DNA from: Candidatus Saganbacteria bacterium
Lineage (GTDB): Bacteria; Margulisbacteria; WOR-1; JAKLHX01
Reading direction: 5' to 3'
Assembly: GCA_026387835.1 (NCBI GenBank)
Contig: JAPLKZ010000013.1
Span: forward strand, 9,369 to 73,368
Length of the DNA: 64,000 bases
Shown piece after piece: positions 33,180-43,330 of this stretch. A program made the translations under genes and the position numbers. Numbering within the stretch: position 1 is the first letter of the stretch; every line of letters starts with the position of its first letter. The notes under the pieces were generated by a model that worked only from the letters and a program-made list of their open reading frames with translations, was not told the origin of the DNA and searched no databases.

Positions 33180-35891
33180 ATGTCCCGGAAAATACTGATA
33201 CCGGTCTTTATCTTCATTCTGTTAGTATCTTTCATCTCCGTATCCCACGCATGGTCTGACTGGAGAACATACAAAACAAAACATTTTACCGTGTTCTACA
33301 AGCCGGGGCTCGAAGACAAAGCGTGGAAAATACTTCAATCCCTTGAATATTACAGGACTAAAGTGGAAAGCCTGGCGGGGAACACCTGCCTGAACACAAA
33401 TATTATAGTCCAGGACGTCGGGAACCTCGTCAACGGATATACCGAACCGGCATTGAACAGGATCGAACTCAATATCAAGTCACCGTCCGAAGGGCAGCTG
33501 CAGCTGAACCAGGACTGGTTCTCAACACTTACAGTGCATGAGTACACGCACATGGCTGAGATATCCAACGTCAGCGGATTATTCAAGATATTAACGGACG
33601 TATTCGGCCCGGCTTTATACCCTAACGCGATATTTCCCCTGTGGGGGCTTGAAGGCATAGCCGTGTACAGCGAATCAAATTACAGCCCGTATTCAGGGAG
33701 GCTGAACGACGGTTTTTTTGACGCCTATGTGATGTCGAGGGCAAAGGAAGGTGATTTTCCTTCGATCGAAGAAGCGACGTTCATGCCTGTCGATTATCCC
33801 TGGCACGGCGGTGCATATATGTACGGCAGCGAGTTCTACAGGTTTCTCTCACAAAAATACGGGCAGGACAGCCTGACAAAATTCTTTAAATATTACGGCG
33901 GCAGCATACCGGTCCTGCAGATCGGGACTACCGCAAGGGCGGCTTTCGGAAAGAACTTTCCGCACCTGTGGGAAGACTGGAAAGAATATGAAAAAGAAAA
34001 AGCAAAAAATTTCAAAGTCGACGGGGACCGGTTCACACAGCACGGCTGGATAATAAAAAACCCGGTCATCGAGAGCGGCAAACTTTATTTTTCACGCGGA
34101 TACCCGGTAAAGACGGCTGCTTTTACAAGCTATTGGTTTTCCCAGATAATCGAAAAAGATCTGGACACGGGACAGGAAAAGGTGATTGCGAGCTCAGCAC
34201 CATACAGAGGTATTCTTTCAAAAGTGATGATAGGAGACCTGCTCAAGATAAAAAACGGTATGCTCTATTATTCCGAGGAAGACAAGATGCCGGGGTTCAG
34301 CAACGAATCTCTCGGAGGAAAAGGGTTCGTCAACAAGATCCATGCCAAAGACCTGAAGACCGGCAAGACAAGCGTACTGTTCGAAGATGATATCAGGGAC
34401 CTTGAAGTGCTTGAGGACGGCAATATTATATATTCTAAGGACAGGGAAGATCCTTTTGGTTCGCAATTGATCGTCTTTGACAGGAAAACCTTAAAAAATT
34501 CGGTCCTGATGCAGACAGATCTTTTGATTGACAGGATGATCGCTAAAAGCGGCGACCTATATGTCTGCGCGAGGAAGGACCTTGAGAACTTCGGCATCTA
34601 CAAGATCGGTCTTGATTCAAAAAAGATATCAGAAATAGTGCAGACCCCTTATTTCGAGGGCGGGCATTCACTTAACGGTAATAATCTATTTTTCAGTTCA
34701 AATTATGGAGGGAAATATAACCTGTACAGCTACAATATAGGATCACAAATAATTTCTAAGGTCTCAAGCGGCGGATATGAAGAACATCCGGTCTATGATG
34801 AGAAGAACAACAAGTTATATTTTATCGGTGTTACCGGTGACGGCTACGACATTTTTAAAAAGAACATGGAAAGCTTCAAATTCGTTCCTCCCATGGCCGT
34901 CAGAGAAGACAAGGCCGATCTCACACTTAAGAAAGAAGATGTCAAACAGGGGGATTATTCAGACAATATCAATTCGCTGTTCCCGCCTTACACAAGAATT
35001 CCTATGCTCTTGTTTGACGGCTCTTCAGCGCAAAGCGGGCTTTTCTTCACCGGGCAGGACGCGATAGGCAATTTTCCATATAAAGCCCTGGCTCTTTATG
35101 ACAGCGGAAAGAAAAAAATGGTATTAAGCACCAGTGTCCAGACCAACTTTTTCTCGCCTGCGATCGCTTCGATAGGATACGCTGACGACACGACCTCCCA
35201 GATCAGCGGCCAGGTCGTTTATCCTTTGATAGATAAAATAGCAATGGGTCTGTCTTCGTTTGATCTCGGCCTTTACGGCAGCTCTTTCGATAACTATTCA
35301 AGAAAGATGGTCGAGCCTTTTTTATCAGCCGGATTTAACCTTCCGAACACGATATTTAATGTTTCATCCGGTATCATGTTTGAACGCCTCAGGTTAGGGT
35401 CCTCTATTTCCAGGACAGGCTATATCGGAAGGCTTGATATCTCGGCATTTTTCCTGCACAACGGCCTGGACGCGTCCGCGGTCGCCATTTATGATCCCGA
35501 TAACCCGTCCGACGTGTTCCCGCAGATAAGGGGTTATCAGGCGGCGCTTACGGACAAGAGCGGCATGATCTTGTCGGCAGAGATAAACAGGCGGCTGTTG
35601 AAAATAAGGCAGGGCTGGTGGTCGAAAGGCCTGTATTTTGAGGACCTGTGCGGGCTTGTTTTCATTGACGGAGCTTCATCCACAGCCGGCAATTCCCAGC
35701 TTTCGGCAGGGGCGGAACTGCATCTTGAAATGAAGTCTATCGTGAACGTGGATCTCGGGCTCAGGTATTCCTATAACAAAGAGAACCAGTCGGGGTGGGC
35801 GGCGCTGATAAAAGTATACCTGCCGTTCAATATTGATATGGACGGCAAGAGGCCTGTTTCTGACAGATTGATCAGCCGGAACCGTTTTTAA
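33180..35891 (+). CDS. Large secreted protein with an HExxH metallopeptidase-like N-domain, a beta-propeller (TolB-like) middle and a probable C-terminal outer-membrane beta-barrel
   Basis: Signal peptide; HEYTHM zincin motif; repeated hydrophobic/Gly blade-like segments; the C-terminus has an alternating amphipathic pattern and ends in Phe (…SRNRF). Confidence 0.5.
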   Translation: MSRKILIPVFIFILLVSFISVSHAWSDWRTYKTKHFTVFYKPGLEDKAWKILQSLEYYRTKVESLAGNTCLNTNIIVQDVGNLVNGYTEPALNRIELNIKSPSEGQLQLNQDWFSTLTVHEYTHMAEISNVSGLFKILTDVFGPALYPNAIFPLWGLEGIAVYSESNYSPYSGRLNDGFFDAYVMSRAKEGDFPSIEEATFMPVDYPWHGGAYMYGSEFYRFLSQKYGQDSLTKFFKYYGGSIPVLQIGTTARAAFGKNFPHLWEDWKEYEKEKAKNFKVDGDRFTQHGWIIKNPVIESGKLYFSRGYPVKTAAFTSYWFSQIIEKDLDTGQEKVIASSAPYRGILSKVMIGDLLKIKNGMLYYSEEDKMPGFSNESLGGKGFVNKIHAKDLKTGKTSVLFEDDIRDLEVLEDGNIIYSKDREDPFGSQLIVFDRKTLKNSVLMQTDLLIDRMIAKSGDLYVCARKDLENFGIYKIGLDSKKISEIVQTPYFEGGHSLNGNNLFFSSNYGGKYNLYSYNIGSQIISKVSSGGYEEHPVYDEKNNKLYFIGVTGDGYDIFKKNMESFKFVPPMAVREDKADLTLKKEDVKQGDYSDNINSLFPPYTRIPMLLFDGSSAQSGLFFTGQDAIGNFPYKALALYDSGKKKMVLSTSVQTNFFSPAIASIGYADDTTSQISGQVVYPLIDKIAMGLSSFDLGLYGSSFDNYSRKMVEPFLSAGFNLPNTIFNVSSGIMFERLRLGSSISRTGYIGRLDISAFFLHNGLDASAVAIYDPDNPSDVFPQIRGYQAALTDKSGMILSAEINRRLLKIRQGWWSKGLYFEDLCGLVFIDGASSTAGNSQLSAGAELHLEMKSIVNVDLGLRYSYNKENQSGWAALIKVYLPFNIDMDGKRPVSDRLISRNRF

Positions 35892-35920
35892 TCGCGAATA
35901 TTTATGATAACATAATCGGT

Positions 35921-37432
35921 ATGGAACTTGATGTAGAGAGACCGGAGACCTGGCCTAACCTGAAAAAGTTCTCGCGGTTCGAGAGAAAGACCTGGATCAT
36001 TTCAAAGATGCCGCTGATACTTCGCACGATCGAAAGATACATTTCCGCTTCCGTCGATTACAGGGACAACTCCCCGTGGGATACTATCGGCTTCATCTGC
36101 CTTGACGACGGGCTTTACAAAGAAGCCGAGCATATCTATGACGATATGATAAAAAGGTCCCATCACAGGGAGACTGTCCTGAACCATCTTCTTTATTGCC
36201 GCGGGATATCCAAATTCCTGCAGGGAAAGTTCAAGAACGCGCTAGAGGATTTCAAGCAGTCAAATCACATGGCGCACATTTACAAGCAGAAAGACCTTGG
36301 CGCTGCAAGGGCTTTGATGTATATGGAAGATACTATTTTCCCGATGATAGACATGGTCTCAAGATCAAAGGAAAAACTGCGCAATGACCTCAACGTGGTG
36401 CCTTTTCTGGATAAAGCAGTCGGCGCAAATATCCTGAAGACCCTCCATAAATGGAATTCCTGCTCGCCGTTGTTTTCAACGGGAGTGAGCCAGGGCGGCG
36501 GTTACCTTCTGACGCTCAAGAACCATCTCGGAGCCGTAAAGTCGATAGCCATAGACCCGGGATACGAGTTTTTGGAGATATTTAAAGACCTTGACCTGTC
36601 TATCGTGGACCTTGACGCGATAATCGCGACGCATGACCACGACGACCATACCGAGTCGATAGAAGCGATCCTTTCCCTTCTGGCAAAGCACAATGACCAT
36701 GTTCCGCAGAGCAGGGCGAAGACCCTTGATGTATTCGGCTCTCCCGGGGTGATGCTCAAATATCAGGGACTTTTCAATGCGCTTGACCCCTGGGGTAACA
36801 GGGAGATAAATTTCAAACTGTTAGTTCCCGGGGCGACGATCGACCATGTCGGGACCGTATCGCTCAAGGAAAAATACGGGTGCACGGTCCATGTCAAGCA
36901 GGCTTTCCACGAGGAGCTCTGGACTCACGAGGAATCAGCGGTAGGCCTCGTGATCGAAACGAATATCGAGGATAAAGCAGGTCATCCGGTATGCGTGGGC
37001 GTGACGGGCGATTCGCGATATGAAAAAGGACTCGGAGAACAGTATAAAGGCTGCCAGGTGCTTTTGTTCAACATCGGCTCGCTTGAAAAAGAGGAAGGAA
37101 AACTTCTGGACCAGCATCTGGGCCTCATAGGTTCAATTAACGTTATTAAAGAAGCAAAACCAAAGGTCGCCGTCCTGACCGAGTTCGGTGAGGAGTTCAG
37201 CGGGAAACGCGCCACGGTCGCTTCGGTCATAGAGGAATGGGCAGCTCCGATGGAGGGAGTGATCGCAGAAGACGAATTTAAAGTGATCCCCGCAGACATG
37301 CATTTTGAGATAAGATTGACGGACCTGTACGTGAAAGAGACCTCGTCCCATGTATTCCTGCCGTACAAGATGATAGAAGTGGAAGAGTCAGGATCTGACA
37401 GTATCATGTACAATATGAAAGAAAAAAGATAG
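35921..37432 (+). CDS. Metallo-beta-lactamase-fold hydrolase with an N-terminal helical extension (about 190 aa)
   Basis: MBL motif IIATHDHDDHTES (HxHxDH) with downstream His/Asp ligands. Paralogous to the 40560..42044 ORF. Confidence 0.6.
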   Translation: MELDVERPETWPNLKKFSRFERKTWIISKMPLILRTIERYISASVDYRDNSPWDTIGFICLDDGLYKEAEHIYDDMIKRSHHRETVLNHLLYCRGISKFLQGKFKNALEDFKQSNHMAHIYKQKDLGAARALMYMEDTIFPMIDMVSRSKEKLRNDLNVVPFLDKAVGANILKTLHKWNSCSPLFSTGVSQGGGYLLTLKNHLGAVKSIAIDPGYEFLEIFKDLDLSIVDLDAIIATHDHDDHTESIEAILSLLAKHNDHVPQSRAKTLDVFGSPGVMLKYQGLFNALDPWGNREINFKLLVPGATIDHVGTVSLKEKYGCTVHVKQAFHEELWTHEESAVGLVIETNIEDKAGHPVCVGVTGDSRYEKGLGEQYKGCQVLLFNIGSLEKEEGKLLDQHLGLIGSINVIKEAKPKVAVLTEFGEEFSGKRATVASVIEEWAAPMEGVIAEDEFKVIPADMHFEIRLTDLYVKETSSHVFLPYKMIEVEESGSDSIMYNMKEKR

Positions 37433-37442
37433 CCGATACCGG

Positions 37443-38987
37443 TCAGTATTTGAACTTGAATTCGATCGCCTTTGTCCTATCTGTTACGTTATAGATATCG
37501 GTAACGCTGTCCTGCGTCAGTTTTTTAAGCTTGGACCTTTCTACCAACAGCTTTATCCCAAAGTTAGTAATGAAAATCTTTTCCGGAGAGCCGGTATTGA
37601 CACAGTCATCTGCAATGTTCCTACGGATATTTATAAGGTCCCCCCAATTATCTTTCACCGTCCGGTAGAAATTTGCGAACTTGTCTACCCCAACCGCGCA
37701 CTGATGTGTATATTGCTGCATGCCAAGGATCTTTTTTGTGTCGGGGAAGAACTTGCCGCCGGTCCTTTTTGCCATCCTGCTGCTTATCAGGATGTCTTCT
37801 TCGCTTGGCGAAAGAGGCGCTATTGCCTTGACGAATTTATTGGCGACGATCGCGTCTTTAGGCATCAAAGAAAGCTCTTTATCGTCAAGGGGTATGTCGA
37901 AATATAATTTATAATAAGCGCTTTCAATATCTTGTAACAGATCGTCTCTTGAGGGGTCTTTTGTAAAATCATAGTAAGCCTTATATTTCCAGAAGCCTTC
38001 GCTTGACGCTACGCACGAGTCGAAATCTTCGCCGGGCTGCACGAGAAGACCGACCGTCTCTTTTATGAACTTCAGCTCTTCCATCATAAGGTCGCCGCTG
38101 GTGTGGATCAGTTCGGGGAACATGGTCTTTTTATCTTTAGAGATCATTAGCGCGTATTTTCCGAAAGTGTTGCTTCCCCATCCTGCTTCAATGATCTTTC
38201 CTGAATCATCCTTTTTGACCTTAAAATACTCGAAATTCCTGTCGTCGCTTTTTTTACTTAAGTCCTGCTCAACCGCTTCCGGTACCGGGATAAAAACACC
38301 TTTTGGATTTCTATACACATATTCACCGTCTTTAAAGATTATCAAAGAGCCCATGGGGATTTCCGTGGTGTCACGGTAAGTAGGGGAGTGGTAATCAATG
38401 ACTTTCTTGAAGACATAGAAAGTTCCTGTTGTTGTAGGATATGCCTGATTATCGTCAAAATATGGCAGACCTTTTTCGTCCCTTCCCTGCATCGGATACA
38501 TCTTATTTTCCGGGCCGGGCACAAAATACATTTTACCAAAAGGGGAACCTTTATATCTTATTAACAAAATTTCGGAACCCGGATATAACTCTACGGTGCA
38601 AGCATTCTTCTCGGACAGTTTCTTTGCTATATCTTCAACGTCCGACTCGTATTGTATAAGTTCCACAAGATAGGGAGTCGAAGAAAAAATGCCGTTGTCG
38701 ATCTTTTGCGGGTAAGGCTTTATCGTTATTCTGCTTCCGACTGGCAGCAATTTATAAAGCATCCAGCTGTTATACGGCGACAAATGCATGCAGCCATGGC
38801 TCTTGTAAAGATACCCGAGCATATTATTGAAAAGGATATGAAAATTATAATTATTCAGAGAGGCAGTGCAAGTAAAAATGTATTCATCGTCATCAGCGGT
38901 TACGACACGGCACAATATAAAGGAACTTACGATCAGCAACAGGGATATTGTTGCGATCATTTTTTTCATCATTATCGGTCTCCTCAT
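37443..38987 (-). CDS. Secreted YkuD-like (L,D-transpeptidase catalytic motif) protein with a roughly 400-aa C-terminal extension; paralog A
   Basis: Signal peptide; FHILFNNMLGYLYKSHGCMHLSPYNSWMLYKLLPVGSRITI matches the YkuD pattern H-x15-SHGC(I/V)R…L(Y)…VxxGTxVxI. The start is taken at the ATG that gives an ATGA overlap with the upstream paralog. Confidence 0.5.
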   Translation of the reverse strand: MRRPIMMKKMIATISLLLIVSSFILCRVVTADDDEYIFTCTASLNNYNFHILFNNMLGYLYKSHGCMHLSPYNSWMLYKLLPVGSRITIKPYPQKIDNGIFSSTPYLVELIQYESDVEDIAKKLSEKNACTVELYPGSEILLIRYKGSPFGKMYFVPGPENKMYPMQGRDEKGLPYFDDNQAYPTTTGTFYVFKKVIDYHSPTYRDTTEIPMGSLIIFKDGEYVYRNPKGVFIPVPEAVEQDLSKKSDDRNFEYFKVKKDDSGKIIEAGWGSNTFGKYALMISKDKKTMFPELIHTSGDLMMEELKFIKETVGLLVQPGEDFDSCVASSEGFWKYKAYYDFTKDPSRDDLLQDIESAYYKLYFDIPLDDKELSLMPKDAIVANKFVKAIAPLSPSEEDILISSRMAKRTGGKFFPDTKKILGMQQYTHQCAVGVDKFANFYRTVKDNWGDLINIRRNIADDCVNTGSPEKIFITNFGIKLLVERSKLKKLTQDSVTDIYNVTDRTKAIEFKFKY

Positions 38988-40351
38988 TTTATTGTCTTGA
39001 ACTCCAGTCTTGAGTTTATCCATTTCTCTACGATCTTTTTCCTTGACTTTTGAGGGACACCGTTCTTTTCAAAGTCGTTTATCAGCTTTTCCCTGAGACC
39101 GACCCAGAACCCCCAGTCAGCTTTCATCTTACCGTACCACCCGGCGTTCTTTTCAATCACTTTGTTATAGATCCTGAGATAATTATACAGGCTCAGAGTA
39201 TCGCGCCTCACTTTTTTGTCTTGCGGCAGATCTCGCGATTTGAAAGCAAGGTATGCTTTTTCAAGCCGCGGATCAAGGACCGCCCTGTCCTTGTTGGTCA
39301 GGGGCATATCGTGGAACAATCTGTAAAAAGCCGCTTCTTCGGGGATCATTTTATTTTCCCTGCCTGATGTTGAAATGAAGTCGTATGCATTCTTGTAAGA
39401 ACTAAAGTCAAGATTATTTACAGCCAGCCCTTCGATATCTAAAGGCCCGTCCATCGTAAGTATATTTGCTATGCTGCCTACCAGCTTGTATTGTTCGAAA
39501 AGGAGCTCGCCCGAGCAATAGCCGATCTCGGGATACCTTGCCCTGCCGTCCCTGGTCCAGTAGATCACATATTTCCCGAAATCATGCCCGGCCCATCTTA
39601 ATGAGAGGATATTGCCGTAATTATCGCGGGAAATGTCGTAATAATTATATCTCCAGCCGCTTTCCTGCTGTAAAAGGTCTTCCTGTATGAAACGCGGGGC
39701 CGGGATATAGCCCGGGAATCTTTTAACGGTCCAGATGCCGGAATTATATTTTATTTCCGTGCCGAACGCAAGTTTTGTGATCTCAGGATAGGTCGGACTG
39801 ATATAATGGTCTGTTTTGCCGAGTATCTTGTATCTGCCGGTGTCCGTCGGCGTCGCCGTCATGAAATCCCTGTCCAAAGGTTTGTTCTTTACGACGTCCT
39901 CAAGCATGGTGAAATCATACGGAGGCCCGGCTTGGACCGGGACTTTGACATACGGCCTGTTATCAAGGAAAATATATAATCTTGAAAATGAAGGAAATAC
40001 CACTAAAGATGTCCTGCTGCTGCTGAACAGCGAAGCATAATAATCTATATCTTTTTCATCCATCACAACGTCGTCGAAAAATGCGATGCTTTTATCCTGG
40101 AACGGCAGGGCTTTATCGGAATAAGACCTTATTATAAGAGGCGTCCCCTTTTTTACTGTCCTGTAAAGGAGATAGATATCTGACGGAGTGAAATGCAGGC
40201 ATCCGTGGCTGTCGTAAAGAAAACCGAGGTAATCGCGGAAATATGATGCGAAATTAGTCTTGTTCAGAAGGTCTTTGCTTCCATAGTCCGCGGCGGAACA
40301 AAATGTTATCAATATAGCGGTCATGATAGCCGCGCATATTAAACGTTTCAT
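38984..40351 (-). CDS. Secreted YkuD-like protein, paralog B (the upstream His is not conserved)
   Basis: FASYFRDYLGFLYDSHGCLHFTPSDIYLLYRTVKKGTPLII; colinear similarity to paralog A over the whole length. Confidence 0.5.
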   Translation of the reverse strand: MKRLICAAIMTAILITFCSAADYGSKDLLNKTNFASYFRDYLGFLYDSHGCLHFTPSDIYLLYRTVKKGTPLIIRSYSDKALPFQDKSIAFFDDVVMDEKDIDYYASLFSSSRTSLVVFPSFSRLYIFLDNRPYVKVPVQAGPPYDFTMLEDVVKNKPLDRDFMTATPTDTGRYKILGKTDHYISPTYPEITKLAFGTEIKYNSGIWTVKRFPGYIPAPRFIQEDLLQQESGWRYNYYDISRDNYGNILSLRWAGHDFGKYVIYWTRDGRARYPEIGYCSGELLFEQYKLVGSIANILTMDGPLDIEGLAVNNLDFSSYKNAYDFISTSGRENKMIPEEAAFYRLFHDMPLTNKDRAVLDPRLEKAYLAFKSRDLPQDKKVRRDTLSLYNYLRIYNKVIEKNAGWYGKMKADWGFWVGLREKLINDFEKNGVPQKSRKKIVEKWINSRLEFKTIK

Positions 40352-40396
40352 TAATGGATATTATAACGCAATAAGGCAAGGGGTGCGAATAATCAA

Positions 40397-40468
40397 CTAG
40401 CCCCACGGGGAATCGAACCCCGACCGTCAGCTTGAAAAGCTGATGTCCTAACCGTTAGACGATGGGGC
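40397..40468 (-). tRNA. tRNA-Glu (UUC)
   Basis: A cloverleaf folds by hand: anticodon stem TCAGC/GCTGA, loop TTTTCAA, T-arm CGGGG-TTCGATT-CCCCG. 72 nt, no encoded CCA. Confidence 0.85.
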
Positions 40469-40559
40469 CACATTTGTAATTTTATCAAAAAACCGTAAAA
40501 CTTACCATACGATCAGAAATACTGAAACTTTACGATTTTTTTATCGATTAATATTCAAG

Positions 40560-42044
40560 ATGGGACACGCATCTGTAAACTTCACAAACAGGGGATGTTC
40601 AAGGCAATGGACTGTTCAGGATGTCGGATTCCGACTCCCTGTACAGAACAGGCTGGTTTTACAGCGGCCGAATGATCGTATCGTGATCGCGGGGCTTGCT
40701 CCGAACGCGGGAAAAGCCCTGGCAGCGGAGGGACTGAGGCCGGATGTTGCGATTGTGCCGTCAAGACAACATTTAAATGAAATGTTTTTCCCGTTATCGA
40801 TTTCAAGCGCTCAGACCGGCGATCGGGTGAAAATTATAGTCCCTGACAGCGATACAGCGGAAGCGGTCAGACAATATCTTGCGCAGGCATACAGGCCCTA
40901 TGCCAAGGACGAGAACCCTTTTTCAGCTTTTATTTTTGACAGGGCAAAACTTGATCACTGGGGTGTTGCGACATTATCCTCAGACGAACTTGCGCAGGAA
41001 ATCCAATATTATAGCGGAAGATGCGAAAGAGATGCCGGTAGGATGGCGGACATAATCATATTAAGACGGGGAGAAGCTTTTGATATGAGGGTCAGAGAGA
41101 ATCCAGTCAGGGTTATGACTCCGGACGGAAAGACATATATCTTCGACGAAGAACGGATATGTTCCGATGATTTTTCGCCGGTAGTCTTTGAAAGGGAAAA
41201 TATCCCCACATTAGAAGAATGGGATCCGCGATTTGGCGTGTTCATGCTGGGTGTAAATTCCGGAGGCTATCCAAAAGGTTTTTCAGTTTCAATGCTTGTG
41301 AGGTCCCGCGGCAGAAATGTCGTCATCGATTGCGGGCCTCAGGTTCCGGCCGTGCTGAAAGAAACGGGAATAAATCTGAACACAATATCCTGGGTGCTAA
41401 CCCATGTCCATCCGGACCATGACAGCGGATTATTTGACCTTCTCGCGGATCCAAATGTCAGAAGAATAGACCTATACACACATATATTCGCGGCAATATC
41501 ACTGCTCAAAAAATGCAGGGCCATGGGTTTGTATGAAAAAGCGGTCCAAAAGATCTCATTTATGGGAGGTGCAAACTTTAACGACGTCAACTTCATCGCT
41601 TCATCCCGGAATCTAACCCCGTGGCCGGGGGCTCTGAGCACTTTCCGTGAAAATATGATGTTCATGGGTTCAAACCATCTTAATATCAGAACAGAATGGA
41701 CCCTGCACGGGATACCCACGATCATGCTGAAAATTGATGACGGAAGGAACGCACTTCTTTATACAGGAGACGGCGCTTTTTCACAGGACAGGATAATCGA
41801 GATCACGGAGGCAGGAGCTCTGTCAGGACAAAGATTATCAAGGATGGCGACTTTTCTGCGTGATTTTAAGCATCAAAATACATTATTGGTCGAAGAGATC
41901 GGAAGAGGAATCAATCACAGCACGAAACCCATGGATATGCTTGATGCGGTTCCATGGATGAGACGGTTCGTTCACTGGGCAAAGGCAGATGATCTTCCGC
42001 AGGAGCAAGTCGCGCAAACATTTGAAGTGGTTAATCTGGAATAG
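40560..42044 (+). CDS. Metallo-beta-lactamase-fold hydrolase, paralog of the 35921..37432 ORF; the N-terminal boundary is uncertain
   Basis: Motif LTHVHPDHDSG with the same domain order as MBL-1 (…VVIDCG… / …SIAIDPG…; …LLYTGDGAF… / …VGVTGDSRY…). GC is locally higher than the neighbours. Confidence 0.5.
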   Translation: MGHASVNFTNRGCSRQWTVQDVGFRLPVQNRLVLQRPNDRIVIAGLAPNAGKALAAEGLRPDVAIVPSRQHLNEMFFPLSISSAQTGDRVKIIVPDSDTAEAVRQYLAQAYRPYAKDENPFSAFIFDRAKLDHWGVATLSSDELAQEIQYYSGRCERDAGRMADIIILRRGEAFDMRVRENPVRVMTPDGKTYIFDEERICSDDFSPVVFERENIPTLEEWDPRFGVFMLGVNSGGYPKGFSVSMLVRSRGRNVVIDCGPQVPAVLKETGINLNTISWVLTHVHPDHDSGLFDLLADPNVRRIDLYTHIFAAISLLKKCRAMGLYEKAVQKISFMGGANFNDVNFIASSRNLTPWPGALSTFRENMMFMGSNHLNIRTEWTLHGIPTIMLKIDDGRNALLYTGDGAFSQDRIIEITEAGALSGQRLSRMATFLRDFKHQNTLLVEEIGRGINHSTKPMDMLDAVPWMRRFVHWAKADDLPQEQVAQTFEVVNLE

Positions 42045-42060
42045 AGCAATATCTATAATA

Positions 42061-42088
42061 AAAGGGCCGCAGGATGCGGCCCTTTATA
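42061..42088. terminator. Bidirectional rho-independent terminator between convergent genes
   Basis: AAA-GGGCCGC-AGGAT-GCGGCCC-TTTATAAT: a 7-bp GC stem flanked by A and T runs. Confidence 0.7.
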
Positions 42089-42101
42089 ATGAACAGGGAT
42101 A

Positions 42102-43211
42102 TCAGAAGCCGATGTGCACGTCGACCATTGTCTTATTGTTCGTCGAATTATTATTATCGCTGACGAACGCGAGGTTGACAGTATCGGCAAGCACTCCGAT
42201 ACCATATGTCATCATGTTCACAGGGGCCGCGCTGTTACCTCCCGATATCGAACCGATCCTGAGCGCGACCAATTTCATCAGGATAGGATATTCAAGACCA
42301 ATGTGCGTGACCGAATAACCGGACGAAACGCTGTCAAGGTCGACAGCAAGCTTCGCTCCGATGAGAGGTATCTCGGTGGCGGCGCCGATGACCAGGGTCG
42401 TCGGCACGGAAACATCAGCGAGAGGAGATGGCGTAAGATTCTGCATCGGACCGCTCTGACTTCCATCCGAGTTATTAAACGTTCCTTTTGTCTTTGCCTG
42501 AGTGCCTTTCAAATTGGCGAAAAGGTCCTTATAAACGAGCGCGAAAGATATCGGCATAGTAGGGACGACATTTGTCTTTCCCTGCATTCCTATATCAAGG
42601 CCGAATCCCGAATAACTGTTGACGGTATTCGTTATGTCGGTCGTGGATACTCCCGCGGCAACACTGGCGTCGGCCGTAGCGTTATAAATATACTTCGCGT
42701 TGAAACCGATATTTATGTCACCAAGATATGGAACGCCGACCCCATATCCCATCGTGAGCGCGCTGTCCGAATTAAGATTCGCGATTGCTCCGGCGCCGAA
42801 CTCGTTCTTGTTCTTGTTAAGTTCGAGATAGGTCACAGGGATCACGCTGATGCCGGTCTTTGCAACATCAAAACCGACGATCGCGTTTACGCTGCCTTTC
42901 ACGTTTATCTGCTGTGAAAAATTATCCGCTAAAAACTTAGCGGGGTTTGATATATTGCCCAATACATTCATGAGCTTATCGGATCCCTGCGAAGTGTATG
43001 CCGCGCCGAGCTTGAGTGCGACTGCCTGAGCTCTCGCCATGCCTGCAGGGTTGTAATAAGCGGCTGCGATGTCATCGACAATAGCGGACCCGGCTCCGCC
43101 CATCCCTGCGATCTTGGCGCTTGCCCCGTAAGGCAGTACACCCGACGGCATAGCAATTGCAGCCGAAGCTATCAGACAGACCGACAGACAAGCTAAAACG
43201 ATTTTCTTCAT
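42102..43211 (-). CDS. FadL/TodX/OmpP1-family outer-membrane transport channel
   Basis: Signal peptide; N-terminal motif GASAKIAGMGGAGSAIVDDIAAAYYNPAGMA resembles the FadL hatch/NPA region; C-terminal Phe. Confidence 0.6.
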   Translation of the reverse strand: MKKIVLACLSVCLIASAAIAMPSGVLPYGASAKIAGMGGAGSAIVDDIAAAYYNPAGMARAQAVALKLGAAYTSQGSDKLMNVLGNISNPAKFLADNFSQQINVKGSVNAIVGFDVAKTGISVIPVTYLELNKNKNEFGAGAIANLNSDSALTMGYGVGVPYLGDINIGFNAKYIYNATADASVAAGVSTTDITNTVNSYSGFGLDIGMQGKTNVVPTMPISFALVYKDLFANLKGTQAKTKGTFNNSDGSQSGPMQNLTPSPLADVSVPTTLVIGAATEIPLIGAKLAVDLDSVSSGYSVTHIGLEYPILMKLVALRIGSISGGNSAAPVNMMTYGIGVLADTVNLAFVSDNNNSTNNKTMVDVHIGF

Positions 43212-43281
43212 ACCAGTCCTCCTTATAAAAAAATATTAGATAAATTGTACATATACGAGGGGGTGAATGTCAAGGACGAAA

Positions 43282-43330
43282 AACTCACCCCCGTCCCCTC
43301 TCTTATCAAGAGAGGGGACGGGGGTGAGTT
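43282..43330 (-). terminator. Very long perfect hairpin (21-bp stem, 7-nt loop) immediately downstream of rpoD
   Basis: AACTCACCCCCGTCCCCTCTC-TTATCAA-GAGAGGGGACGGGGGTGAGTT, followed on the minus strand by TTTTTCG. Confidence 0.6.

What the first reader, a model, noticed from the sequence alone, without database searches (positions are those of the whole stretch)
33180..43211. Accessory-looking envelope block with two paralog pairs (MBL-fold x2, YkuD-like x2) arranged around tRNA-Glu, plus a giant HExxH-propeller-barrel protein and a FadL-type channel
The gene order is: HExxH/beta-propeller/beta-barrel secreted protein, MBL-1 (+), YkuD-like A (-), YkuD-like B (-), tRNA-Glu (-), MBL-2 (+), terminator, FadL-family outer-membrane protein (-). 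The two MBL proteins share the same extended architecture. The two secreted proteins share the L,D-transpeptidase catalytic segment (SHGC…VxxGTxxxI) plus about 400 aa of colinear unknown sequence. Duplicated modules flanking a tRNA gene, none with assigned function, with signal peptides or outer-membrane localisation on four of the six, suggest a cell-wall or outer-membrane remodelling or uptake system, possibly horizontally acquired. No integrase or transposase is present, so mobility is unsupported.
Basis: partly seen in the sequence, partly recalled or inferred. Interest (0 to 1): 0.7.

Follow-up and report, generated by a model that had tools for sequence, protein, structure and literature searches.

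The report
Permuted L,D-transpeptidase pair in mosaic locus
The ten-kilobase "envelope block" is not one system but a patchwork on a housekeeping backbone of an uncultured Saganbacteria genome, and its only real unit is a pair of secreted cell-wall-enzyme-like proteins whose catalytic domain is a previously undescribed circular permutation of the L,D-transpeptidase (YkuD) fold.

Summary
The six genes are not a unit.

Related contigs show a backbone of RluA, flavin reductase and MBL-1, convergent on a FadL/PorV-like OMP, rpoD, dnaG and dGTPase. Two pieces vary between relatives: the HExxH gene, and a 4.6-kb segment (YkuD-A, YkuD-B, tRNA-Glu, MBL-2). I found no integrase, flanking repeats or codon-usage anomaly.

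The two MBL proteins share only the MBL core (E=3e-4). They are not a meaningful paralog pair.

The YkuD-like pair is real (E=2e-50). It recurs as B followed by A, or as a B-A fusion, in nearly every Margulisiibacteriota locus examined, always with different neighbours.

Its YkuD domain is circularly permuted: the SHGC catalytic segment comes first and the beta-sandwich about 60 residues later. Canonical YkuD proteins match the family profile as two pieces in swapped order, and as one collinear piece once the family is un-permuted. A-type keeps Cys and His. B-type has Tyr in place of His.

The HExxH protein has a clan-MA peptidase domain, a TolB-like propeller and a 16-strand Omp85-type barrel. 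This fits the catalogued but uncharacterised "WD40-Omp85" class.

Function is inferred: periplasmic peptidoglycan peptide chemistry.

The parts
33180..35891 (+). HExxH protein (903 aa). Signal peptide, then a clan-MA gluzincin-like domain (aa ~28-277; HEYTH 120-124, E158), a six-bladed TolB-like propeller (aa ~290-562) and a 16-strand Omp85-type barrel (aa ~605-880; IRGY 783-786 in the loop between strands 11 and 12; F828-x-D830-G in strand 13). It is a lineage-variable insertion between the flavin reductase gene and MBL-1.
35921..37432 (+). MBL-1: cytoplasmic MBL-fold metallo-hydrolase (503 aa) with a ~200-aa N-terminal region that gives weak TPR hits. It is a backbone gene, conserved across the phylum.
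   Evidence: Pfam Lactamase_B_2 1.3e-11, 44.9 bits. 67 metagenome loci at 50-86% identity. Conserved H238DHDDH243, H330, D364, H399. Adjacent to OMP-rpoD in L032, L033, L080 and L083.
37443..38969 (-). YkuD-like A (508 aa from Met19 of the 526-aa ORF, which runs up to 39023). Signal peptide, then the SHGC-M-H catalytic segment (Cys60, nt 38792-38790), a helical linker, the beta-sandwich part of a permuted YkuD fold ending in E-L-I-H289-T-S-G (nt 38105-38103), and a ~200-aa all-helical C-terminal domain.
38984..40351 (-). YkuD-like B (455 aa), the upstream gene of the B-then-A operon. Same permuted architecture: SHGC-L-H (Cys51, nt 40201-40199), but Tyr278 (E-I-G-Y, nt 39520-39518) where A-type has the catalytic His.
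   Evidence: BLASTP A vs B E=2e-50. Pfam YkuD 27.3 bits on profile positions 118-146; after un-permuting, 29.9 bits on positions 11-146. Tyr in all B-type modules. B followed by A, or fused, in nearly all loci.
40360..40389 (-). Sigma-70-like promoter candidate (TTCGCA-18-TATAAT) between tRNA-Glu and the start of B.
   Evidence: This is a consensus match only (10 of 12).
40397..40470 (-). tRNA-Glu (anticodon UUC), same strand as B and A and upstream of them.
   Evidence: ARAGORN. Rfam tRNA 66.8 bits.
40560..42044 (+). MBL-2: cytoplasmic MBL-fold hydrolase (494 aa; THVHPDH motif) with an unrelated ~220-aa N-terminal region. Nearest named relatives by the first ~70 residues of the MBL core are RNase Z and Apyc1.
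42061..42085 (.). Hairpin terminator (AAA-GGGCCGC-AGGAT-GCGGCCC-TTT) between the convergent MBL-2 and OMP genes. Its counterpart in relatives lies between MBL-1 and OMP.
   Evidence: Sequence read. Junction alignment with L032, L080 and L083.
42102..43211 (-). Outer-membrane beta-barrel protein (369 aa) of the FadL/PorV/BamG type. It is a backbone gene downstream of rpoD but transcribed separately.
   Evidence: NCBIfam PorV_fam 6.7e-9 over the whole length and BamG 1.3e-8, both below cut-off. Synteny OMP-rpoD-dnaG-dGTPase in L032, L033 and L083 (OMP next to MBL-1 in L080 too) at 53-54% identity.
43244..43329 (-). 20-bp-stem intrinsic terminator after rpoD (43329-43283), followed by a near-consensus promoter (TTGACA-18-TACAAT, 43273-43244) for the OMP gene.

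Best explanation
OVERALL: The region is a mosaic, not a system.

(1) Backbone. In this Saganbacteria lineage the conserved order is RluA, flavin reductase and MBL-1, convergent on a FadL/PorV-like OMP, rpoD, dnaG and dGTPase.

(2) Two variable pieces sit in this backbone.
- The HExxH gene encodes an outer-membrane Omp85-type barrel. In place of POTRA domains it carries a TolB-like propeller and a clan-MA zinc-peptidase domain.
- A 4.6-kb segment holds a two-gene operon (B then A), tRNA-Glu and an unrelated cytoplasmic MBL hydrolase.

(3) The only functional unit is the B/A pair.
- Both are exported ~450-500-aa proteins.
- Their catalytic domain is a circular permutation of the YkuD (L,D-transpeptidase) fold. 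The chain starts with the segment that normally ends the domain (SHGC loop, helix, last strand). A ~35-residue helical linker leads into the beta-sandwich that normally comes first. That sandwich ends at the catalytic-His strand, and a ~200-aa helical domain follows.
- A-type keeps the Cys/His pair. B-type keeps Cys but has Tyr for His.
- The two are always adjacent in the order B then A, or fused.

INFERRED (not shown): A and B work together in the periplasm. The Cys forms a thioacyl intermediate with a peptidoglycan stem peptide, giving L,D-transpeptidase or L,D-carboxypeptidase-type chemistry. A is the catalytic partner, and B is a modified or regulatory partner.

SHOWN: gene order, variability between relatives, paralogy, permutation, residue conservation, restriction of named members to one phylum.

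INFERRED: substrate, activity, A-B interaction, direction of the indels.
For: SOURCE AND DISTRIBUTION
- P0038 and P0047 are 100% identical proteins from a Ca. Saganbacteria MAG.
- Only 37 and 10 clusters among 5.8e9 proteins are homologous to B and A.
- Only 73 representatives among 1.84e9 match the family profile.
- 16 loci were found in 185,579 species genomes, and all named ones are Margulisiibacteriota, Saganbacteria or WOR-1.

MOSAIC STRUCTURE
- tblastn of 12 window proteins against 26 + 67 loci.
- MBL-1 lies ~48 nt from the OMP in L032, L033, L080 and L083.
- FlavRed abuts MBL-1 in L029 and L030.
- RluA-FlavRed-HExxH-MBL-1 is kept in L009/L027, but different genes follow.
- The junction alignment places the indel between the MBL-1 stop codon and the conserved hairpin.
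- Codon usage is native and there are no flanking repeats.

PAIR AS THE UNIT
- B followed by A, or fused, in L001-L005, L008, L011-L023, L025, L026 and L094.
- 12 of the top representatives are two-module proteins of ~900-980 aa.

PERMUTATION
- The Pfam YkuD match grows from profile positions 117-146 to 11-146 (B) and 37-146 (A) when residues 119-293 are placed before residues 29-88. Middle-only controls give no hit.
- The native profile hits PDB 5bmq in two stretches in inverted order. The un-permuted profile hits it collinearly with 5-10-fold better E-values.
- hhalign against B. subtilis YkuD extends from 28 to 64 columns across the junction.
- Ten Pfam-validated canonical-order YkuD proteins, including Niabella WP_067758440.1, match the native profile as two domains in swapped order. 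They match the un-permuted profile as one collinear domain. For P0147, HMM 7-233 aligns to residues 14-219.
- These proteins share the unusual SHGC-x-H, (F/I)HTTP and NDFG motifs.

CATALYTIC RESIDUES.

HExxH PROTEIN: and the WD40-Omp85 class in PMC4104836.
Against: - No model coordinates were available. I could not verify that the N-terminal SHGC segment packs on its own beta-sandwich rather than on a partner's, or that Cys and His are within catalytic distance.
- Sequence matches of the beta-sandwich to distant canonical YkuD proteins are weak. Matches are significant only to the closest canonical-order subgroup (whole-library E 1e-7 to 8e-4).
- B-type lacks the canonical His, and both types have His instead of the usual Arg at Cys+2. 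The chemistry may therefore differ from known Ldts.
- One close relative (L006/L007) has an A-type gene with no adjacent B.
- Whether the 4.6-kb segment was inserted here or lost in relatives is undetermined.
- The Omp85 assignment of the barrel rests on strand count, two motifs and borderline Pfam hits in distant homologs. The fold searches were swamped by propellers.
Confidence: 0.72

Rival explanations
1. One reading: the six genes plus tRNA-Glu form one horizontally acquired envelope-remodelling or uptake system.
For: - Four exported or outer-membrane products.
- HExxH and the A/B/tRNA/MBL-2 segment are absent at the equivalent junctions of related contigs.
- The HExxH family is patchily distributed over several candidate phyla.
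Against: - The components do not co-occur in 27 pair-containing loci or in 67 MBL-1 loci.
- MBL-1 and the OMP are backbone genes.
- The genes are in convergent or divergent orientation with separate promoter-like and terminator elements.
- Codon usage is native.
- There is no integrase, no flanking repeats and no tRNA-fragment duplication.
- The MBL pair is not paralogous beyond superfamily level.
Confidence: 0.07
2. A and B form a segment-swapped heterodimer. The N-terminal SHGC segment of one subunit docks on the beta-sandwich of the other. The productive site would then be B's Cys with A's His in trans, and the 'permutation' would really be a split domain reassembled between two chains or two modules of a fusion.
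For: - Near-obligatory B-then-A adjacency and frequent B-A fusions.
- B keeps a near-invariant SHGC although it lacks His.
- A ~35-residue helical linker separates the SHGC segment from the sandwich.
Against: - The AF2 monomer model is compact and confident (pTM 0.84, pLDDT above 90 across the SHGC segment).
- A stand-alone A-type gene exists (L006/L007).
- In three-module systems it is the B' module that loses SHGC while also lacking His. This fits a dead module better than a trans-acting one.
Confidence: 0.13
3. The YkuD-like proteins are not peptidoglycan enzymes. They would be pseudo-enzymes, binding proteins, or Cys-hydrolases acting on another envelope substrate (for example protein or lipoprotein anchors), with the large helical domain providing the real function.
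For: - Arg to His change at Cys+2 and His to Tyr in B.
- About half of each protein is a helical domain with no informative fold match.
- No Pfam or NCBIfam family covers the proteins.
- YkuD domains are known to do non-transpeptidase chemistry: L,D-carboxypeptidase in ElsL (doi 10.1101/2021.09.22.461454), and in Csd6 and Pgp2 (PDB descriptions).
Against: - SHGC is near-invariant in the whole family, and His is invariant in all 19 A-type modules. That indicates selection on a catalytic site.
- The closest canonical-order relatives are annotated and Pfam-validated YkuD proteins.
- The proteins are exported to the compartment where peptidoglycan lies.
Confidence: 0.2

Closest known systems
Canonical YkuD-family L,D-transpeptidases and carboxypeptidases (B. 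subtilis YkuD 1y7m, M. tuberculosis LdtMt2, E. faecium Ldtfm, E. coli YcbB/LdtD, H. pylori Csd6, C. jejuni Pgp2, A. baumannii ElsL)
   Same: - (S/T)xGC catalytic loop followed by a helix and a final strand ('SHGCLHFTPSDIYLLYKT.P.G..L.I').
- Beta-sandwich with a 'TPxGxY.I' strand and an 'FGxY.L' strand.
- A catalytic His strand in A-type.
- Export to the periplasm.
   Different: - The order of the two halves of the domain is swapped (circular permutation), so the Cys precedes the His by ~230 residues instead of following it by ~16-25.
- His replaces the conserved Arg at Cys+2.
- There is a ~70-90-aa insertion inside the sandwich.
- A ~200-aa helical C-terminal domain is present.
- The proteins occur as a fixed B-then-A gene pair or fusion.
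- B-type has Tyr for the catalytic His.
Canonical-order 'SHGC-x-H' YkuD proteins of ~220-290 aa (e.g. Niabella ginsenosidivorans WP_067758440.1, P0147-P0159)
   Same: - They share the family-specific motifs: GPTDPGDY, WVFNDFG, (F/I)HTTP, SHGC(I/V)H.
- They share the internal insertion.
- They give the best non-family hits in 1.84e9 representatives.
   Different: - The domain is in the normal linear order.
- There is no helical C-terminal domain.
- Those read have no obvious signal peptide.
- They are single genes and occur outside Margulisiibacteriota (Bacteroidota in the one named case).
WD40-Omp85 subfamily of the Omp85/TpsB superfamily (Heinz & Lithgow 2014, PMC4104836)
   Same: - A 16-strand Omp85-type barrel preceded by a TolB-like beta-propeller instead of POTRA domains.
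- Function uncharacterised.
   Different: - The window protein and its family carry an additional N-terminal clan-MA (HExxH...E) peptidase-like domain.
- The window protein itself does not reach any Pfam threshold.
- Whether the 2014 cluster included such members was not checked, because the supplementary tables were not read.
FadL-family 14-strand barrels PorV/PorQ (T9SS) and BamG (Bacteroidota BAM; PMC12611786)
   Same: The OMP aligns over its whole length to the PorV/PorQ profile (residues 26-366 against profile positions 7-323 of 326), and to BamG.
   Different: - Scores are far below the curated cut-offs (35.8 vs 90; 34.4 vs 250).
- No T9SS or Bacteroidota-type BAM context is present.
- Here the gene sits downstream of rpoD as a conserved, separately transcribed gene.
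RNase Z / Apyc1-type MBL phosphodiesterases (for MBL-2)
   Different: - Only ~70 residues match.
- All scores are far below family cut-offs.
- A 220-aa unknown N-terminal region is present.
- No phage homolog was found.

Membership tests
YkuD / L,D-transpeptidase catalytic domain (PF03734) | Match to the family HMM above the gathering score | tested here: inconclusive
   B scores 27.3 bits (cut-off 23.4), but only on profile positions 118-146. A scores 19.9 bits, below the cut-off. After un-permuting, B scores 29.9 bits on positions 11-146 and A 22.8 bits on positions 37-146.
YkuD / L,D-transpeptidase catalytic domain (PF03734) | Catalytic (S/T)xGC motif with invariant Cys | tested here: met
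   SHGC is near-invariant in 37 aligned sequences and 36 of 38 modules. The exceptions are the B' modules of two fusions.
YkuD / L,D-transpeptidase catalytic domain (PF03734) | Catalytic His on the strand preceding the Cys loop | tested here: inconclusive
   A-type has invariant His in E-L-I-H-(T/S)-S-G, matching (F/I)HTTP of canonical-order relatives. B-type has Tyr at that position. Spatial proximity to the Cys could not be measured.
YkuD / L,D-transpeptidase catalytic domain (PF03734) | Canonical linear order: beta-sandwich first, catalytic loop, helix and last strand at the C-terminal end | tested here: not met
   The order is inverted. The native profile hits ten canonical YkuD proteins as two domains in swapped order, and the un-permuted profile hits them as one collinear domain. 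PDB 5bmq shows the same pattern.
YkuD / L,D-transpeptidase catalytic domain (PF03734) | YkuD-like three-dimensional fold | tested here: met
YkuD / L,D-transpeptidase catalytic domain (PF03734) | L,D-transpeptidase or carboxypeptidase activity on peptidoglycan stem peptides | not testable with these tools
   Needs a biochemical assay.
Omp85 superfamily (WD40-Omp85 type) | 16-stranded C-terminal beta-barrel | tested here: met
   There are 16 strands between residues 605 and 880 in the AF2 model (pLDDT 91, pTM 0.90).
Omp85 superfamily (WD40-Omp85 type) | Loop-6 (V/I)RG(Y/F) motif and strand-13 (F/G)xDxG motif (positions known from BamA, FhaC and TamA structures; my own knowledge) | tested here: met
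   IRGY 783-786 (R784 and G785 near-invariant) lies in the 22-residue loop between strands 11 and 12. F828 (invariant), D830 and the following G lie in strand 13.
Omp85 superfamily (WD40-Omp85 type) | Match to Pfam Omp85 (PF01103) | tested here: inconclusive
   The window protein has no Pfam hit. Only 2 of 36 family members hit, namely the distant homologs P0093 (24.6 bits, cut-off 24) and P0092 (23.0 bits). The fold searches listed no BamA among the top hits because propellers dominate.
Omp85 superfamily (WD40-Omp85 type) | N-terminal TolB-like beta-propeller in place of POTRA domains | tested here: met
Clan MA (gluzincin) metallopeptidases, Peptidase_MA_2-like | HExxH zinc motif plus a downstream Glu ligand | tested here: met
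   H120, E121, H124 and E158 (within W-x-x-E-G) are invariant in 36 sequences.
Clan MA (gluzincin) metallopeptidases, Peptidase_MA_2-like | Match to a clan-MA family HMM | tested here: inconclusive
   18 of 36 members hit PF13485 at E<=1 (best 7.8e-5) and 6 hit M61. The window protein itself has no hit.
Metallo-beta-lactamase fold superfamily | HMM match above threshold and HxHxDH motif | tested here: met
   MBL-1: Lactamase_B_2 44.9 bits (cut-off 27), with H238DHDDH243. MBL-2: Lactamase_B 37 bits (cut-off 22.7), with HVHPDH.
FadL / PorV / BamG 14-strand outer-membrane barrels | Match to a family HMM above the curated cut-off | tested here: not met
   PorV_fam 35.8 bits (cut-off 90) and BamG 34.4 bits (cut-off 250). 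Pfam gave no hit even at E<=10. The E-values (about 1e-8) and whole-length coverage still indicate superfamily-level relatedness.
FadL / PorV / BamG 14-strand outer-membrane barrels | 14-strand barrel with an N-terminal plug or tail and a lateral opening | not tested
Genomic island / integrative element at a tRNA gene | Integrase, transposase or other recombinase | tested here: not met
   None among the six genes or the seven flanking genes.
Genomic island / integrative element at a tRNA gene | Flanking direct repeats or a duplicated tRNA 3' end | tested here: not met
   Only short chance-level repeats were found in 37300-42300.
Genomic island / integrative element at a tRNA gene | Composition or codon usage deviating from the host | tested here: not met
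   Codon-usage distance z from -1.2 to -0.2 for five genes, and +2.0 for the OMP, which is a backbone gene. Only A has a low GC (0.421, z -2.6), and its GC3 is normal.
Genomic island / integrative element at a tRNA gene | Variable presence among related genomes | tested here: met
   The 4.6-kb segment and the HExxH gene are absent from the equivalent junctions in L032, L033, L080 and L083, and in L029 and L030, respectively.

The most novel reading that the evidence does not exclude
The B/A pair may be a heteromeric cell-wall enzyme restricted, as far as sampled, to Margulisiibacteriota and built from a circularly permuted YkuD fold. The break between the catalytic His strand and the Cys loop would let the active site be assembled, or gated, between two chains or modules. 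A would be the catalytic subunit. B, with His replaced by Tyr, would donate its Cys segment in trans or regulate A. The helical domains would select the substrate. This could be, for example, attachment of outer-membrane proteins to peptidoglycan, in a Terrabacteria clade reported to lack Pal and, like most phyla, Lpp (bioRxiv 10.1101/2021.05.31.446380).
Probability: 0.15. Interest if true: 0.65.

Novelty: new variant of a known kind. Interest (0 to 1): 0.45.

Why it matters
L,D-transpeptidases are carbapenem targets. They make 3-3 cross-links and tether outer-membrane components to the wall. As far as the Pfam and NCBIfam scans and the literature I searched show, all described members share one linear domain order.

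A phylum-restricted family that cuts the domain between its two catalytic residues, and then fixes two diverged copies as an obligate pair or fusion, matters for three reasons:
- It is a clean natural case of circular permutation.
- It is a blind spot for HMM annotation, because only 30 residues are detected.
- It is a lead into envelope biology of an uncultured sister lineage of Cyanobacteria.

The analysis also gives a negative result. Clustering of exported proteins next to a tRNA gene does not make an island or a system here. The comparative data separate the conserved backbone from the variable pieces. Finally, the HExxH protein extends the uncharacterised WD40-Omp85 class with a putative zinc-peptidase domain.

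Tried and rejected
- Exact-sequence look-up of B found nothing, because the gene call in the collection starts at a different Met.
- Single-sequence PDB searches for MBL-1, MBL-2 and the OMP were uninformative beyond the MBL core and a weak PorV hit.
- Pfam at E<=10 gave no family for the OMP.
- tblastn of MBL-2 against 50,697 phage records found no match, so the Apyc1 resemblance does not point to a phage origin.
- The search for flanking repeats around the 4.6-kb segment found only chance-level matches.
- Rfam found only the three tRNAs.
- A full-text search for a permuted YkuD found nothing relevant; the only 'permut' hits were statistical tests. One query was malformed.
- I considered and rejected the idea that longer homologs (640-700 aa, annotated 'L,D-transpeptidase, partial') carry a complete canonical YkuD domain. 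They are B-A fusions truncated by contig ends.
- I considered that the tRNA-Glu marks an integration site. No tRNA lies next to the pair in 17 other loci.
- The association of the pair with ECF-sigma/LTXXQ/MacB or M48 genes in other lineages is too patchy to use as functional evidence.

Full report
**1. What is there**

The window carries the six ORFs at the stated coordinates. tRNA-Glu(UUC) lies at 40397-40470 on the minus strand.

Proteins 100% identical to A (from Met19) and to the HExxH protein are deposited from a "Candidatus Saganbacteria bacterium" MAG, on a 165,873-bp contig. All named homologs of A and B are from Margulisiibacteriota, Saganbacteria or WOR-1.

The flanks are housekeeping genes:
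- Upstream: a PPDK-like enzyme, tRNA-Met, an RluA-type pseudouridine synthase and a flavin reductase.
- Downstream: rpoD, dnaG and a dGTPase-like HD protein.

GC content is flat across the block.

**2. Domain checks**

- **MBL-1:** Lactamase_B_2, 44.9 bits.
- **MBL-2:** Lactamase_B, 37 bits.
- **A and B:** they hit Pfam YkuD only on the last 30 profile positions. B scores 27.3 bits, above the cut-off; A scores 19.9 bits, below it.
- **HExxH and the OMP:** no Pfam hit.
- **NCBIfam:** TolB-propeller for HExxH, and PorV/PorQ (6.7e-9, whole length) and BamG (1.3e-8) for the OMP, all below cut-offs. BamG is described as a FadL-family 14-strand barrel (PMC12611786). "FadL-type" is therefore reasonable at superfamily level but not a validated membership.

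**3. Paralog pairs**

A and B are real paralogs: E=2e-50, 25% identity over 469 aa.

MBL-1 and MBL-2 are not a meaningful pair:
- BLASTP aligns 90 aa around HxHxDH (E=3e-4).
- A 55-sequence MBL-1 profile aligns to MBL-2 over only 96 core columns at 59% probability.
- The N-terminal ~150-200 aa do not align.

**4. Is the block a unit? No**

I fetched 27 loci carrying A/B homologs and 67 loci carrying MBL-1 homologs. I then searched them with 12 window proteins.

(a) The YkuD-like genes recur as B directly followed by A, or fused B-A, in essentially every locus. The exception is L006/L007, which has A alone. None of these loci has HExxH, MBL-1, MBL-2, rpoD or dnaG nearby. No tRNA is adjacent in 17 loci.

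(b) MBL-1 is conserved across the phylum (50-86% identity, 67 loci). In L032, L033, L080 and L083 its stop codon lies ~48 nt from the 3' end of the OMP gene. In L032, L033 and L083, rpoD-dnaG-dGTPase follow the OMP, exactly as in the window (L080 is a 1.6-kb contig that ends within the OMP gene).

(c) In L029 and L030, flavin reductase abuts MBL-1 with no HExxH gene. In L009/L027, the closest relative, RluA-FlavRed-HExxH-MBL-1 is kept but different genes follow.

The backbone is therefore RluA, FlavRed and MBL-1, convergent on OMP, rpoD, dnaG and dGTPase. HExxH and the 4.6-kb segment 37443-42044 (A, B, tRNA-Glu, MBL-2) are indels.

The junction alignment puts the second indel between the MBL-1 stop codon and the conserved terminator hairpin. 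I found:
- no flanking repeats;
- no recombinase;
- ordinary codon usage (z from -1.2 to -0.2). Only A has a low GC (0.421), and its GC3 is normal.

Promoter-like and terminator-like elements separate rpoD from the OMP gene, and tRNA-Glu from B. The direction of each indel (gain here or loss elsewhere) is not determined.

**5. The YkuD-like family is circularly permuted**

The family alignment shows a near-invariant N-terminal "LGYLYDSHGCLHFTPSDIYLL..P.G..L.I". Downstream there are segments resembling the beginning of YkuD domains: "VVYP..RLFI..N..PY..V...GP", "TPTDxGxYxI" and "NDFGKY.LL".

The AF2 model of A (pLDDT 91.2, pTM 0.84) has these parts:

| Residues | Element |
|---|---|
| 57-83 | SHGC segment |
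| 92-118 | helical linker |
| 124-289 | beta-rich region |
| 292-495 | helical domain |

Direct tests of the permutation:

- **(i) Pfam.** Placing residues 119-293 in front of 29-88 extends the YkuD match from profile positions 117-146 to 37-146 (A) and 11-146 (B), with higher scores. Middle-only controls give no hit.
- **(ii) PDB profile search.** The native family profile hits PDB 5bmq in two stretches in inverted order. The un-permuted profile hits it collinearly, with 5-10-fold better E-values.
- **(iii) hhalign against B. subtilis YkuD.** I wrote the sequence from memory and verified it against 1y7m at E≈1e-106. The alignment extends from 28 to 64 columns across the artificial junction. 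Probability rises from 44% to 67%.
- **(iv) The decisive test.** An exhaustive search of 1.84e9 representatives returns only 73 hits. Its weak tail consists of proteins of ~220-385 aa that Pfam recognises as YkuD in canonical order. One is annotated "L,D-transpeptidase" in Niabella.
  - They share the family's peculiar motifs: GPTDPGDY, WVFNDFG, (F/I)HTTP, SHGC(I/V)H.
  - Each matches the native profile as two domains in swapped order. For P0147, HMM 119-274 aligns to residues 14-150 and HMM 49-83 to residues 184-220.
  - Most match the un-permuted profile as one collinear domain. For P0147, HMM 7-233 aligns to residues 14-219, scoring 44.8 bits against 28.2 + 15.5.

The cut lies between the catalytic-His strand and the Cys loop.

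**6. A versus B**

I extracted 38 modules from the loci:
- All 19 complete A-type modules have His in E-L-I-H-(T/S)-S-G.
- All B-type modules have Tyr at that position.
- SHGC-x-H is kept in both types, except in the middle B' module of two three-module systems (L003, L020), where it reads DDGN.

Twelve of the best representatives are two-module proteins of ~900-980 aa. Fixed order plus fusion is classic evidence for a functional, probably physical, partnership.

**7. Mechanism (inferred)**

Both proteins are exported. By homology with YkuD enzymes, the Cys should attack the L-centre-D-Ala bond of a stem tetrapeptide, forming a thioacyl enzyme. That intermediate would be resolved by an amine (transpeptidation) or by water (L,D-carboxypeptidation, as in Csd6, Pgp2 and ElsL).

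**8. The HExxH protein**

- The 36-sequence alignment has invariant H120, E121, H124, E158, F828 and G844.
- The AF2 model (pLDDT 91, pTM 0.90) shows an alpha/beta-plus-helical N-domain, a six-bladed propeller and 16 C-terminal strands.
- Half of the family hits Peptidase_MA_2.
- Two distant members hit Pfam Omp85 at about the cut-off.
- IRGY lies in the loop between strands 11 and 12, and F-x-D-G lies in strand 13. From my own knowledge of BamA, FhaC and TamA structures, these match the Omp85 L6 and β13 signatures.
- Heinz & Lithgow (PMC4104836) catalogued a "WD40-Omp85" subfamily with a TolB-like propeller. This protein fits that class, with an added putative zinc-peptidase domain.
- Its homologs occur in several uncultured lineages without conserved neighbours.

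**9. Verdict**

- The "one accessory envelope system" interpretation is not supported, although part of the region is variable between relatives.
- The most notable result is the permuted YkuD pair, found so far only in Margulisiibacteriota among named sources. It is a new variant of a known enzyme fold, undetected by current domain models beyond a 30-residue fragment, and absent from the literature I could search.
- Interest is moderate. It is notable for protein-evolution and cell-wall specialists, but functionally unproven.

Noticed in passing
window 35921-37432; loci L027-L093: MBL-1 is a strongly conserved protein across the phylum: 67 metagenome loci at 50-86% identity. It has a full metal-binding set and an invariant HKWNS...SQGGGY motif (aa 176-195) ahead of the MBL core. 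It has no assigned function and no solved relative.
   Followed up: partly
window 43244-43329 (minus strand): A perfect 20-bp-stem intrinsic terminator right after rpoD is followed by an 11-of-12 sigma-70 consensus promoter in front of the OMP gene. The OMP is thus a separately and probably strongly expressed gene in a conserved position.
   Followed up: partly
L001 13802-21368 (also L002): In another Margulisiibacteriota genome the B-A pair borders a tyrosine-recombinase gene followed by a defence-type cluster: EcoRI-like methylase, GmrSD/HNH, Hypoth_Ymh and an OLD-family ATPase.
   Followed up: no
L003 14325-20563, L004, L020, L005 13215-18777, L008 3-1511: In three other sub-lineages the pair lies within a few kb of an ECF-sigma, LTXXQ (Spy/CpxP-like), OEP, MFP and MacB-type efflux cluster. 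In L001, L002 and L094 it lies next to Peptidase_M48 and DUF5670. These are envelope-related but inconsistent neighbourhoods.
   Followed up: partly
proteins P0148, P0149, P0150, P0154, P0159 (canonical-order YkuD relatives): These proteins lack the first hairpin at the N-terminus. They end in 'F.FHF(Y/F)PG..K..(V/I)', which resembles the family's first hairpin 'VVYP..RLFI'. This may be a second, different permutation within this YkuD subgroup.
   Followed up: no
protein P0155 (1766 aa): It carries eight to nine tandem repeats (~87-aa period) that each match only the 'TPTDxGxY' strand region of the family profile. This looks like a repeat protein built from a YkuD sub-fragment.
   Followed up: no
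L024 (JAQVRT010000065.1, 3.9 kb): A B-type gene sits on a short contig binned into a 'Candidatus ainarchaeum' (archaeal) MAG. This is most likely a binning error rather than an archaeal homolog.
   Followed up: no
L003 11377-14325 and L020 (fused B'-A proteins): Three-module systems (B, then a fused B'-A protein) exist in which the middle B' module has lost the catalytic motif (DDGN instead of SHGC) and also has Tyr instead of His. It looks like a dead module kept as part of the fusion.
   Followed up: partly
L028 11509-14043; L009 14329-20348: The MBL-1/OMP junction holds different cargo in different relatives: ~2.5 kb of small ORFs in L028, and genes of 331 aa, 429 aa (faint SPOR hit) and 1240 aa in L009. 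This suggests a local hotspot of gene-content change without any recognisable mobility genes.
   Followed up: partly
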